Of a stretch of 64,000 nucleotides of DNA, positions 56,742 through 57,843 are shown piece by piece. A program made the translations under genes and the position numbers. This stretch comes from Bacillota bacterium (lineage in GTDB: Bacteria; Bacillota; Clostridia; Ch29), in the NCBI GenBank assembly GCA_013540605.1, contig JABVCK010000002.1:32339-96338 (forward strand), read 5' to 3'. The first letter of the stretch is position 1; each line of letters opens with the position of its first letter. The notes beneath the pieces were generated by a model that saw nothing but the letters and a program-made list of their open reading frames with translations, made no database searches and was not told where the DNA came from.

Positions 56742-57011
56742 CTACATTACCAGCCTGACCAGAGGATTTGCAAAAAGAAGTATCAGGGCTATAATAAGGC
56801 CGTAGATGCCGGTGGTTTCCGCAACCGCCGCACCCAGCAGCATGGTCCTGACAATATCCCCCTGGGCCTCCGGCTGTCTTCCTACCGCCTCAGCGCCCTT
56901 TCCCGCCGCATAGCCCTGGCCTATACCCGGGCCAATCCCCGCAATCATCGCCAATCCCGCTCCAATGGCGGATGCGGCGAGTACCAGTGCTTTACCTGTA
57001 ATGGGTTCCAT
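56742..57011 (-). CDS. atpE: ATP synthase Fo c subunit (single hairpin) with Na+-type signature
   Basis: Start ATG after GAGGAGG; [84 protein letters not shown]; Q in helix 1 and ETTGIY in helix 2. Confidence 0.9.
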
Positions 57012-57033
57012 ACATATATTCCTCCTCAATTAA

Positions 57034-57843
57034 TTACTTCAGCAGCCCCAGCAGGGGGTTGGCAAACATCAGCAGCAGCGCTATTATTAAGGCATATATG
57101 CCTGTCGTCTGTGCCACCGCCTGTCCCAGGAACATAACCCGGGTTATCATACCCTGGTGCCCCGGCCTCTTCCCGATCGCCTCCACCGCCTTCCCCGCAG
57201 CAACACCCTGGCCTATGCCGGGCCCGATGCCGGCAATCATCGCAAACCCCGCTCCGATGGCAGATGCGGCCAGAATAATCCACAACCCTTCATCCGCACC
57301 CAGGGGGTTTGCAAAAATCAGTATGAGGGATACCACGAGGGCCAGTATTGTTGAAGTCTCAGCCACCGCTCCGCCCAGAAGAAGGGCAAAGGTCACGTTT
57401 TTCCTTGCTTCCGGGTTAACCCCAACAGCTTCTGCCGCCTTCCCCGCAGCATAACCCTGCCCCAGTGCGGGACCTATACCCGCCACCATTGCTATACCTG
57501 CCCCTATGGCGGAAGCGGCAAGCACCATCTTCGCGCCGTTTACCCCGACCAGTGGATTCCCGAACAGGAGAATCAAAGCCACGATCAGCGCCAGAATACC
57601 CGATGTCTCCGAAATCGCCGCACCCAGCAGCATGGTAAAGGTTATTTGCTTGCCTTCCTCAGGCTTTTCCCCCACTGCCTCCGCTGCTTCACCCGCAGCA
57701 AACCCCTGGCCTATGCCGGGGCCGATCCCCGCAATCATCGCAAACCCGGCGCCTATGGCGGAGGCCGCCAGGACAAGGGCTTTTTTGTCGAAGGAATTAA
57801 GCCATTCTATCAAGCGGACAATGAAATTTCCGGTGGAATCCAT
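57034..57843 (-). CDS. Fused triple-hairpin Fo c subunit (three tandem c-subunit repeats; third hairpin E->Q)
   Basis: Start ATG (MDSTGN) after AAAGGAG; repeats: …[20 protein letters not shown]…[15 protein letters not shown]… / …[20 protein letters not shown]…[15 protein letters not shown]… / …[20 protein letters not shown]…[15 protein letters not shown]…. Confidence 0.85.

What the first reader, a model, noticed from the sequence alone, without database searches (positions are those of the whole stretch)
56742..57843. Na+-binding signature in all c-subunit hairpins
Both the single c subunit and the active hairpins of the fusion carry Gln in helix 1 (GIGQG) and E-T/S-T/S…Y in helix 2 (AETTGIY; SETSGIL; AETSTIL). 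Together these residues form the Q32/E65/S66/T67/Y70 Na+ coordination set of I. tartaricus and A. woodii. H+-coupled Bacillus-type enzymes lack the Gln and the Ser/Thr. Hairpins 1-2 of the fusion replace the Tyr by Leu, which may tune affinity. This suggests a Na+-coupled F1Fo.
Basis: partly seen in the sequence, partly recalled or inferred. Interest (0 to 1): 0.55.

Follow-up and report, generated by a model that had tools for sequence, protein, structure and literature searches.

The report
Sodium-type ATP synthase, three-hairpin rotor subunit
Two neighbouring genes for the membrane rotor of an ordinary bacterial ATP synthase carry the amino-acid set that binds sodium ions in the well-studied Acetobacterium woodii enzyme, so the enzyme is very probably sodium-driven; the unusual part is that one rotor protein is a fusion of three hairpins, two with a working site and one without.

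Summary
The quoted motifs are real and sit at the positions equivalent to those in solved Na+ c-rings. The single c subunit (56742-57011, minus strand, 89 aa) aligns without gaps to Ilyobacter tartaricus c (Q32, V63, A64, E65, T66, T67, Y70) and is 85% identical to A. woodii c2/3. The title is wrong on one point. The 269-aa fusion (57034-57843) has three hairpins, and the third has Gln in place of the carboxylate (AQTTGIY), like the inactive hairpin of A. woodii c1. The Tyr-to-Leu remark also needs correcting. Tyr70 is not a Na+ ligand, and it acts on the neighbouring hairpin's site. By inference, the Leu of hairpin 2 lines the dead site, and only hairpin 2's site lacks the Tyr hydrogen bond. 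The operon is a standard F-type one, not an N-ATPase. Best reading: an A. woodii-type Na+ F1Fo enzyme with a mixed F/V rotor. Na+ coupling is inferred by homology and was not measured. The fusion is intact in four other assemblies, and every hairpin is under purifying selection. It belongs to a widespread Clostridia series with 2-5 hairpins. I found no description of F-type members with more than two hairpins.

The parts
56742..57011 (-). atpE2: single-hairpin c subunit (c2), 89 aa. It has the same numbering as I. tartaricus c: Q32, V63, A64, E65 (GAA at 56817-56819), T66, T67, Y70.
   Evidence: PF00137 and TIGR01260 are above their cut-offs. It aligns without gaps to 1YCE and 4BEM_A and is 85% identical to A. 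woodii c2/3. The exact protein is found on 5 other contigs.
57034..57843 (-). atpE1: three-hairpin c subunit (c1-type fusion), 269 aa, carboxylate pattern E-E-Q.
   Evidence: It has three PF00137 stretches. The best solved relative is A. woodii c1, 4BEM_J. The DNA shows a 249-nt period with only 62-76% identity between copies. The AF2 model has an N-terminal helix plus six long helices, mean pLDDT 67. The ORF is intact in L080-L083.
57778..57843 (-). N-terminal extension of the fusion (residues 1-22, predicted helix), homologous to the N-terminus of A. woodii c1.
   Evidence: The phmmer alignment to 4BEM_J starts at c1 residue 6. AF2 predicts a helix at residues 3-16.
57532..57777 (-). Hairpin 1 (residues 23-104): Q46, I77, S78, E79 (GAG at 57607-57609), T80, S81, L84. 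It heads a live site. Its T80/S81/L84 complete the site of hairpin 2.
   Evidence: dN/dS is 0.07 against L001.
57283..57531 (-). Hairpin 2 (residues 105-187): Q129, E162 (GAG at 57358-57360), T163, S164, L167. This is the extra live hairpin absent from A. woodii c1. It is closest to hairpin-1-type sequences.
   Evidence: It is 69% identical to hairpin 1 and 75% to hairpin 1 of two-hairpin proteins, more than to any Gln-type hairpin. dN/dS is 0.13-0.14.
57037..57282 (-). Hairpin 3 (residues 188-269): Q212, Q245 (CAG at 57109-57111, in place of Glu65), T246, T247, Y250. It has no carboxylate site of its own, but it supplies T/T/Y to the next subunit's site.
   Evidence: The string AVAQTTGIY is identical to A. 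woodii c1 hairpin 2. Q245 is invariant in alignment A1. dN/dS is 0.08-0.12.
57867..58535 (-). atpB: Fo subunit a (222 aa) with the conserved stator arginine ([10 protein letters not shown]).
   Evidence: PF00119. It aligns to chloroplast and Bacillus PS3 a subunits. Gene calls give 222 aa.
58540..58902 (-). atpI (assembly factor).
   Evidence: PF03899 scores 51.7 bits. AtpR scores 22, below its cut-off of 26.
58909..59136 (-). Small ATPase_gene1 (AtpZ-like) membrane protein at the head of the operon.
   Evidence: PF09527 scores 62 bits.
51601..56717 (-). Rest of the F-type operon: b (56220-56717), delta (55645-56223), alpha (54108-55667), gamma (53297-54184), beta (51872-53278) and epsilon (51601-51870, beta-sandwich domain only).
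   Evidence: Pfam hits for b and delta. Gene calls with Pfam families for alpha and gamma. Beta is named as such in its cluster. Epsilon is supported.

Best explanation
This is the rotor module of an Acetobacterium woodii-type Na+-translocating F1Fo ATP synthase. What the sequence shows: a canonical F-type operon (atpZ-atpI-a-c1-c2-b-delta-alpha-gamma-beta-epsilon) encodes two kinds of c subunit. One is a single-hairpin c2 with the complete Na+ ligand set. The other is a three-hairpin c1 whose first two hairpins keep Gln32/Glu65/Thr66/Ser67 and whose last hairpin has Gln in place of Glu65. What is inferred: the two proteins co-assemble into one heteromeric ring. Each Na+ site lies at a hairpin interface. 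Gln32 and Glu65 come from hairpin i. The residue-63 backbone carbonyl, the Ser/Thr66 hydroxyl, the water-holding Thr/Ser67 and the residue-70 hydrogen-bond donor come from hairpin i-1. Going round the fusion, four sites follow. The hairpin 1 site is canonical, because Thr/Thr/Tyr come from the preceding c2. The hairpin 2 site has all Na+ ligands, but Leu84 of hairpin 1 sits where Tyr70 normally hydrogen-bonds the carboxylate. The hairpin 3 site is dead (Gln245) and is lined by Leu167 of hairpin 2. The site of the following c2 is canonical again, using Thr246/Thr247/Tyr250 of hairpin 3. Each fusion therefore puts exactly one ion-free position into the ring, as c1 does in A. woodii. If the ring has 11 hairpins like all characterised Na+ F-type rings, one fusion plus eight c2 would give 10 Na+ per turn (3.3 per ATP). 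More copies of the fusion would lower that ratio. Na+ ions bound to Glu65 are carried past the stator arginine of subunit a, coupling the Na+ gradient to ATP synthesis or hydrolysis.
For: The hairpins align without internal gaps to the Na+ rings 1YCE, 3ZK1 and 4BEM, with identical ligand positions. c2 is 85% identical to A. woodii c2/3, 89% over the 72-residue core. The fusion's N-terminal extension and hairpin 1 align to A. woodii c1 hairpin 1, and hairpin 3 aligns to c1 hairpin 2, with AVAQTTGIY identical. The Foldseek best hit is 4BEM_J. A. woodii has a ring of nine c2/3 plus one c1 and synthesises ATP from a Na+ gradient (PMC9171764). C. aceticum, with c1 (E then Q) plus c2 and the 'Q....ET' motif, has a Na+-stimulated ATPase (PMC7911925). 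The site geometry and the role of Tyr70 come from PMC3692424 and PMC2359735. In those papers Gln32 and Glu65 belong to subunit A, and Val63, Ser66 and Tyr70 to subunit B. In E. hirae K, Q110 and E139 of the C-terminal hairpin pair with L61, T64 and Y68 of the N-terminal hairpin. The family pattern fits partner = hairpin i-1. A hairpin followed by a Gln-hairpin has L/F/I at position 70 in 168 of 168 cases. The last hairpin has Tyr in 105 of 110 cases. The F-type gene order, the presence of delta and atpI, and the stator Arg are shown. The fusion is real and maintained. It is identical or nearly so in four independent assemblies. dN/dS is 0.07-0.14 in every hairpin against relatives at 82% and 73% identity. 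The internal DNA repeats are only 62-76% identical.
Against: No ion dependence was measured; everything about Na+ rests on homology. [quoted passage not shown] That protein is far more distant from the Na+ reference structures than this one is. The window holds no Na+ pump such as Rnf or a Na+ decarboxylase to show a Na+ cycle. Ring composition, hairpin number and co-assembly of c1 with c2 are all inferred. The AF2 monomer model has only moderate confidence (pLDDT 67, rmsd 9.9 A to 4BEM_J), and I could not read its coordinates, so the pocket was not modelled. The i-1 partner rule is derived from E. hirae and from family covariation, not from a structure of this protein.
Confidence: 0.8

Rival explanations
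1. The enzyme is Na+-coupled but works mainly in reverse in the cell, as an ATP-driven Na+ extrusion pump of a fermenting Clostridium rather than as an ATP synthase. This rival concerns only the direction of operation.
For: The epsilon subunit is only 89 aa and has just the beta-sandwich domain, so it lacks the C-terminal helices that inhibit hydrolysis in many bacteria. No Na+-motive respiratory complex lies in the 64-kb window. Dead sites lower the ion/ATP ratio, which classically favours pumping (view summarised in PMC9171764).
Against: Enzymes with V-type-like c subunits do synthesise ATP at low driving force (A. woodii and E. limosum; PMC9171764). Only one of roughly eleven sites would be dead, so the gear ratio barely changes. 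The rest of the genome was not available, so a missing Rnf in the window means little.
Confidence: 0.25
2. Despite the motif, the enzyme is physiologically H+-coupled.
For: All c-rings tested are intrinsically H+-selective and use Na+ only when Na+ is in large excess (PMC3692424). The predicted Na+ specificity of the B. pseudomallei N-type ring proved wrong (PMC5376962). Databases label the c2 cluster 'F-type H+-transporting ATPase subunit c', but that is a generic name.
Against: Every first-shell residue is identical to A. woodii c2/3, and overall identity is 85%. Enzymes with this exact motif have been shown to be Na+-dependent. H+ enzymes differ at positions 66/67, for example chloroplast E-A-L.
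Confidence: 0.08
3. The three-hairpin gene is an assembly or annotation artefact, or a decaying duplicate that is not built into the ring.
For: The gene is internally repetitive. One NCBI MAG annotation calls only a 164-aa product (P0122).
Against: The repeats are only 62-76% identical at the DNA level, too divergent to cause mis-assembly. The 269-aa ORF is intact in four independent assemblies, including the one annotated as 164 aa. Every hairpin shows dN/dS of 0.07-0.14. Ten clusters of E-E-Q proteins and many other multi-hairpin relatives exist.
Confidence: 0.03
4. It is an N-type (alternate) Na+ ATPase.
For: The atpI product has a weak AtpR hit. TIGR03322 passes its cut-off for the fusion.
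Against: AtpR scores 22 bits against a cut-off of 26. TIGR03322 passes only because three hairpins add up (136 against 130.85), and c2 alone scores 60. The gene order is the classical F-type one, with delta present and beta/epsilon last.
Confidence: 0.01

Closest known systems
Acetobacterium woodii Na+ F1Fo ATP synthase with an F/V-hybrid c ring (c1 plus c2/c3; PDB 4BEM)
   Same: The operon layout matches, with a multi-hairpin c1 gene followed by a single-hairpin c2. c2 is 85% identical, with the same Q/V/A/E/T/T/Y site. c1 has the same N-terminal extension. Its first hairpin reads ETSG(I)[L/F]. Its last hairpin has Glu replaced by Gln, with AVAQTTGIY identical.
   Different: Here c1 has three hairpins and two carboxylates (E-E-Q) instead of two hairpins and one (E-Q). 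The extra hairpin looks like a duplicate of hairpin 1. It creates a live site that lacks the Tyr70 hydrogen bond. There is one c2 gene here, against two identical copies in A. woodii. Nothing has been measured biochemically.
Clostridium aceticum Na+ F1Fo ATP synthase (c1 E-Q plus a single c2)
   Same: It has one c1 gene and one c2 gene, the 'Q....ET' / 'Q....QT' motifs and a conserved gene order. Its ATPase has been shown to be Na+-dependent (PMC7911925).
   Different: Its c1 has two hairpins, against three here.
Ilyobacter tartaricus / Propionigenium modestum / Fusobacterium nucleatum / Clostridium paradoxum c11 Na+ rings (1YCE, 3ZK1)
   Same: The first-shell positions are identical and the alignment has no gaps. 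c2 has the same length and numbering as I. tartaricus c.
   Different: Those rings are homo-oligomers of single hairpins with no dead site.
Triplicated A1Ao proteolipid of Methanocaldococcus jannaschii and related methanogens
   Same: Three fused hairpins. That it has only two ion-translocating carboxylates is from my own memory of Ruppert et al. 1999; the triplication is mentioned in PMC2359735 and PMC9171764.
   Different: It belongs to an archaeal A-type enzyme and arose independently. The protein here is an F-type c, with 60-89% core identity to F-type Na+ c subunits, and it sits next to a separate single-hairpin c gene.
Enterococcus hirae V-type NtpK (2BL2)
   Same: A fused double hairpin in which the C-terminal hairpin supplies Gln and Glu while the N-terminal hairpin supplies the Thr, the backbone carbonyl and the Tyr. 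This is the geometry used here to assign site partners.
   Different: It is a V-type enzyme with one site per four helices, and its sequence relationship is only weak (26 bits).

Membership tests
F-type ATP synthase subunit c (PF00137 / TIGR01260) | Profile match above the curated cut-off, with a two-helix hairpin architecture. | tested here: met
   For c2, PF00137 scores 70.7 bits (cut-off 24) and TIGR01260 68.7 (cut-off 43.95). The fusion scores 138.8 bits in three stretches. The AF2 model has six long helices.
F-type ATP synthase subunit c (PF00137 / TIGR01260) | Encoded in an F-type operon with a, b, delta, alpha, gamma, beta and epsilon. | tested here: met
   The order is atpZ-atpI-a-c1-c2-b-delta-alpha-gamma-beta-epsilon.
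Na+-binding c subunits (I. tartaricus type) | Gln (or Glu) at position 32 of helix 1. | tested here: met
   Gln is invariant in c2 and in all three fusion hairpins.
Na+-binding c subunits (I. tartaricus type) | A carboxylate at position 65 of helix 2. | tested here: met
   Glu is present in c2 (E65), hairpin 1 (E79) and hairpin 2 (E162). It is absent in hairpin 3 (Q245), which therefore heads no site.
Na+-binding c subunits (I. tartaricus type) | Ser/Thr at position 66, and Thr/Ser at position 67 to hold the water ligand. | tested here: met
   The pairs are TT (c2), TS (hairpin 1), TS (hairpin 2) and TT (hairpin 3). The roles of these residues are described in PMC3692424.
Na+-binding c subunits (I. 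tartaricus type) | Tyr70 as hydrogen-bond donor to Glu65 (a stabilising residue, not a ligand). | tested here: inconclusive
   Tyr is present in c2 and hairpin 3. Hairpins 1 and 2 have Leu, and A. woodii c1 hairpin 1 has Phe. By the i-1 partner rule, one live site (hairpin 2) lacks it. I found no mutant data on the consequence.
Na+-binding c subunits (I. tartaricus type) | Na+ (or Li+) dependence of activity, and Na+ protection from DCCD. | not testable with these tools
   This needs biochemistry.
A. woodii-type hybrid F/V rotor | A multi-hairpin c1 gene next to a single-hairpin c2 gene in one F-type operon. | tested here: met
   The same arrangement is seen in 35 two-hairpin-plus-one-hairpin loci and 6 three-hairpin-plus-one-hairpin loci, among the 54 of 79 related loci that carry a multi-hairpin c gene.
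A. woodii-type hybrid F/V rotor | The last hairpin of c1 has Glu65 replaced by Gln (an ion-free position). | tested here: met
   Q245, with AVAQTTGIY identical to 4BEM_J.
A. woodii-type hybrid F/V rotor | c1 is a duplicated (two-hairpin, four-helix) subunit with a single Na+ site. | tested here: not met
   There are three hairpins and two carboxylates. It is therefore a variant of the type, not a plain member.
A. woodii-type hybrid F/V rotor | c1 and c2 co-assemble into one ring. | not testable with these tools
   This needs native mass spectrometry or cryo-EM.
N-ATPase (alternate F1Fo) | Operon atpDCQRBEFAG with AtpQ/AtpR and no delta, present in addition to a normal F-type operon. | tested here: not met
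   Delta is present and beta/epsilon come last. AtpR is below its cut-off. c2 scores 60 against TIGR03322, whose cut-off is 130.85.

The most novel reading that the evidence does not exclude
The fusion may be the first recognised F-type rotor subunit with three covalently linked hairpins and two live Na+ sites. One of those sites is non-canonical, with Leu where Tyr70 normally hydrogen-bonds the carboxylate. It would be one step in a widespread, so far undescribed series of clostridial F-type c1 subunits with 2, 3, 4 or 5 hairpins and 1 to 3 carboxylates (E-Q, E-Q-Q, E-E-Q, E-Q-E-Q, E-Q-Q-Q, E-Q-E-E-Q). Through that series, bacteria would set the Na+/ATP ratio of the synthase in small steps. 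This would be a bacterial counterpart of the archaeal 'playground' of c subunits.
Probability: 0.4. Interest if true: 0.65.

Novelty: new variant of a known kind. Interest (0 to 1): 0.45.

Why it matters
The number of ion-binding sites per rotor turn sets how many ions an ATP costs. That decides whether organisms living near the thermodynamic limit can make ATP at all. So far the only described F-type enzymes with a 'missing tooth' in the rotor are those of A. woodii and C. aceticum, both with a two-hairpin c1. This locus and its relatives show that the same lineage has fused three to five hairpins with different numbers of live sites. That offers natural variants for testing how ring composition, dead sites and the Tyr70 hydrogen bond affect Na+ affinity, gear ratio and ring assembly. 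More practically, public records name these proteins generically, or as H+-transporting. One large c-ring survey discarded sequences above 250 aa. Their Na+ coupling and their architecture are therefore easy to miss.

Tried and rejected
1. A genome-contig scan with the single fusion protein found no confirmed relative. A repeat with an alignment of three-hairpin proteins gave 79 loci.
2. I predicted the structure of the fusion from a 16-sequence alignment. The model has only moderate confidence (pLDDT 67, pTM 0.65). It superposes poorly as a whole on 4BEM_J (rmsd 9.9 A), although single hairpins fit c subunits at 1-2 A. I could not read its coordinates.
3. The 4BEM structure paper (Matthies et al. 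2014) is not held in the library. A search for Y70F mutant data found nothing. The effect of Tyr-to-Leu therefore stays an inference.
4. I searched the whole window for a Na+ cycle partner (Rnf, Na+ decarboxylase, Nqr, antiporter). It holds only flagellar, cell-wall, sporulation, housekeeping and regulatory genes.
5. The N-ATPase reading was considered and rejected on gene order and scores.
6. I looked for a compensating residue for the missing Tyr. Ser78 in hairpin 1 (sequence ISET) is not specific to E-E-Q proteins: an E-Q-Q locus has it, and some E-E-Q proteins have VAET.
7. Several literature searches for F-type c subunits with three or more hairpins found none. That is absence from the searchable library, not proof of absence.
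Full report
WHAT IS THERE. The finding's coordinates cover two adjacent minus-strand genes inside a complete F-type ATP synthase operon. The operon order is ATPase_gene1/AtpZ-like (58909-59136), atpI (58540-58902), a (57867-58535), a long c gene (57034-57843), a short c gene (56742-57011), b, delta, alpha, gamma, beta and epsilon (51601-51870). The likely starts are the ATG at 57843 (behind AAAGGAG) and the ATG at 57011 (behind GAGGAGG). Independent gene callers on other assemblies give the same products of 269 and 89 aa. The short protein has one PF00137 domain and the long one has three. 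The DNA of the long gene shows a 249-nt period, with copies only 62-76% identical to the reference copy.

CHECK OF THE OBSERVATION. All the quoted strings are present. I aligned the four hairpins with I. tartaricus c, A. woodii c2/3 and the two hairpins of A. woodii c1, and the alignment has no internal gaps. The 89-aa protein even shares I. tartaricus numbering: Q32, V63, A64, E65, T66, T67, Y70. Gln32 is invariant in all eight sequences. Position 66 is always Ser/Thr and position 67 always Thr/Ser. Position 65 is Glu in c2, hairpin 1 (E79) and hairpin 2 (E162), but Gln in hairpin 3 (Q245). That matches the second hairpin of A. woodii c1, where the nonapeptide AVAQTTGIY is identical. Position 70 is Tyr in c2 and hairpin 3, and Leu in hairpins 1 and 2; it is Phe in A. 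woodii c1 hairpin 1.

The best matches among solved structures are 4BEM_J (A. woodii c1), 4BEM_A (c2/3), 1YCE (I. tartaricus) and 3ZK1 (F. nucleatum), which are all the Na+ rings. c2 is 85% identical to A. woodii c2/3 and 70% to I. tartaricus c. The title, however, is wrong in saying 'all c-subunit hairpins'. Hairpin 3 has no carboxylate, and that Gln is invariant in 16 three-hairpin relatives. Two smaller corrections apply. Hairpin 2's helix-1 motif is ALGQG. The ligand list should also be restated: Gln32, Glu65, Ser/Thr66, the backbone carbonyl of residue 63, and a water held by Thr67 and the carbonyl of residue 64. Tyr70 only donates a hydrogen bond to Glu65 (PMC3692424).

HOW DIAGNOSTIC IS THE MOTIF. 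The spinach chloroplast c subunit is H+-coupled. It aligns with Gln, Glu and Tyr conserved but has Ala-Leu at positions 66/67. The discriminating residues are therefore Ser/Thr66 and Thr67, and they are present here in every hairpin. Enzymes with exactly this motif have been shown to depend on Na+. A. woodii has a ring of nine c2/3 plus one c1 and makes ATP from a Na+ gradient (PMC9171764). C. aceticum has c1 with 'Q....ET' then 'Q....QT' plus one c2, and its ATPase is Na+-stimulated (PMC7911925). [quoted passage not shown] That protein is far more distant from the reference structures than this one is. All c-rings are also intrinsically H+-selective and use Na+ only when it is in large excess. 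I put Na+ coupling at about 0.8-0.9, on homology alone.

WHICH HAIRPIN COMPLETES WHICH SITE. Na+ sites lie between hairpins. Gln32 and Glu65 come from subunit A; Val63 O, Ser66 and Tyr70 come from neighbour B (PMC2359735; PMC3692424). In the fused E. hirae K subunit (156 aa), Q110 and E139 of the C-terminal hairpin pair with L61, T64 and Y68 of the N-terminal hairpin. In a fusion, therefore, the partner of hairpin i is hairpin i-1. The protein family supports this independently. I parsed 110 multi-hairpin relatives with a regular expression. A hairpin followed by a Gln-hairpin has Leu/Phe/Ile at position 70 in 168 of 168 cases and never Tyr. The last hairpin, which faces the next subunit, has Tyr in 105 of 110 cases. 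The sequences are related, so these are not independent events. A few degenerate hairpins escape the pattern used.

Applied to this protein, the rule gives four sites. The hairpin 1 site is canonical, completed by the preceding c2. The hairpin 2 site has all Na+ ligands (Q129, E162, plus I77 O, T80 and S81 of hairpin 1), but Leu84 sits where Tyr would hydrogen-bond the carboxylate. The hairpin 3 position is dead (Q245) and is lined by Leu167. The following c2's site is canonical again, using T246, T247 and Y250. What the missing hydrogen bond does to Na+ affinity or selectivity is unknown. I found no Tyr70 mutant data.

IS THE FUSION REAL AND FUNCTIONAL. The identical 269-aa ORF occurs in a Logan assembly (L080). 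Versions with 2 to 8 nucleotide differences, mostly synonymous, occur in three further independent assemblies (L081-L083). One of these is an NCBI MAG whose annotation calls only 164 aa from an internal start, although the full ORF is intact. Against the closest species-level relatives (L001 at 82% and L002 at 73% protein identity), synonymous sites are close to saturation (pS 0.6-0.8). Where dN/dS could be computed it is 0.07-0.14 for each of the three hairpins. For c2, 44 of 73 synonymous sites differ against 4 of 194 non-synonymous sites. Hairpin 2 is closest to hairpin-1-type sequences: 69% to its own hairpin 1 and 75% to hairpin 1 of two-hairpin proteins. It is not close to the Gln-type middle hairpins of E-Q-Q proteins. 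It most likely arose by duplication of hairpin 1 inside an A. woodii-like c1. That origin also explains why a Leu-bearing hairpin now precedes a live site.

CONTEXT. The exact proteins belong to a MAG annotated as Firmicutes/Bacillota bacterium (MBA1334055-MBA1334061, on a contig of 183,510 bp). The window otherwise holds flagellar genes, mreB, spoIID, murA, metK, recD2, a molybdopterin oxidoreductase and two-component systems. No Na+ pump lies within these 64 kb, so the window gives no independent evidence for a Na+ cycle. Subunit a is a normal F-type a with the stator arginine. The N-ATPase reading is excluded by gene order, the presence of delta, AtpR below its cut-off, and c2 scoring 60 against the 130.85 cut-off of TIGR03322.

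THE WIDER FAMILY. A search of 5.8 billion proteins returned a graded series of F-type c1-like proteins. Proteins of about 184 aa have two hairpins (E-Q). Proteins of about 265 aa have three hairpins, either E-Q-Q (for example Alkalibacter rhizosphaerae and Crassaminicella indica) or E-E-Q (about ten 90% clusters, including this one). Proteins of about 350 aa have four hairpins (E-Q-E-Q or E-Q-Q-Q). Proteins of about 440-458 aa have five hairpins (for example E-Q-E-E-Q). Of 79 related loci from species-representative genomes, 54 carry a multi-hairpin c gene. That includes 35 with a two-hairpin c1 followed by a single-hairpin c2, and 6 with a three-hairpin c1 followed by c2. Every c2 has the full Q...E-[ST]-T..Y motif. 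Only the two closest relatives (L001, L002) share the E-E-Q pattern in that set. The hosts are Clostridia, including Alkaliphilus, Natronincola, Fusibacter, Geosporobacter, Vallitalea, Epulopiscium and Acetobacterium.

In the searchable literature I found only two-hairpin c1 subunits described for F-type enzymes. Three-hairpin and 13-hairpin c subunits are described only for archaeal A-type enzymes. A high-throughput c-ring survey explicitly removed sequences longer than 250 aa.

MECHANISM AND STOICHIOMETRY (INFERRED). All Na+ F-type rings characterised so far have 11 hairpins (PMC3692424). With one fusion and eight c2 subunits, the ring would have 11 hairpins and 10 Na+ sites. That is the same 3.3 Na+ per ATP as in A. 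woodii. In that case the extra live hairpin merely replaces one c2, and the change could be nearly neutral. With two or three fusions per ring, the ratio would fall to 3.0 or 2.7. The direction of operation in vivo (synthase or Na+ pump) cannot be decided here. The epsilon subunit lacks the C-terminal inhibitory helices, which is compatible with easy hydrolysis. Enzymes with V-type-like c subunits do, however, synthesise ATP.

VERDICT. As a Na+ signature alone, this is a routine new member of the A. woodii / C. aceticum kind. The interest comes from the three-hairpin, two-carboxylate c1 with one Tyr-less live site, and from the undescribed multi-hairpin series it belongs to. I rate it a new variant of a known kind, with interest 0.45.

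Noticed in passing
window 51601-51870 (-): The epsilon subunit is only 89 aa. It matches only the beta-sandwich N-terminal domain (PF02823; positions 2-84 of the 130-position TIGR01216 profile). The C-terminal helical domain that inhibits ATP hydrolysis in many bacteria is absent, and a 143-nt gap follows before the next gene.
   Followed up: partly
proteins P0001-P0120; loci L003-L054: A graded series of F-type c1-like proteins has 2, 3, 4 and 5 fused hairpins and different Glu/Gln patterns (E-Q, E-Q-Q, E-E-Q, E-Q-E-Q, E-Q-Q-Q, E-Q-E-E-Q). In some 4- and 5-hairpin proteins (P0008, P0019, P0024), the dead middle hairpins have also lost the helix-1 Gln (GAGVGCG). I found no description of the F-type members with three or more hairpins in the papers searched.
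   Followed up: partly
L013, L024, L049: Some genomes carry two multi-hairpin c genes in tandem (3+2 or 2+2 hairpins) followed by a single-hairpin c2. L015, L019 and L056 carry two or three single-hairpin copies.
   Followed up: no
window 59431-61815 (+) and 61843-63186 (+): A dCache-HAMP-HisKA sensor kinase and a sigma-54-dependent response regulator lie divergently, directly upstream of the atp operon. The kinase is in the same position in L080. Whether they regulate the operon is unknown.
   Followed up: no
L081 1653-2147; protein P0122: The NCBI MAG GCA_030017455.1 annotates the fusion from an internal start (164 aa), although the full 269-aa ORF is intact there. JGI names the c2 cluster 'F-type H+-transporting ATPase subunit c'. 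The public annotation hides both the architecture and the likely coupling ion.
   Followed up: yes
window 57034-57843 (-): The NCBIfam model for the N-ATPase c subunit (TIGR03322) passes its cut-off on the fusion only because three hairpins add their scores (136 against 130.85). The single c2 scores 60. Multi-hairpin proteins can therefore be mis-assigned by whole-protein cut-offs.
   Followed up: yes
window 35317-36042 (-): One ORF combines a weak N-terminal Phd/YefM antitoxin-like match (27.4 bits, below the family's 29.8 cut-off) with a Uma2 putative restriction endonuclease domain.
   Followed up: no
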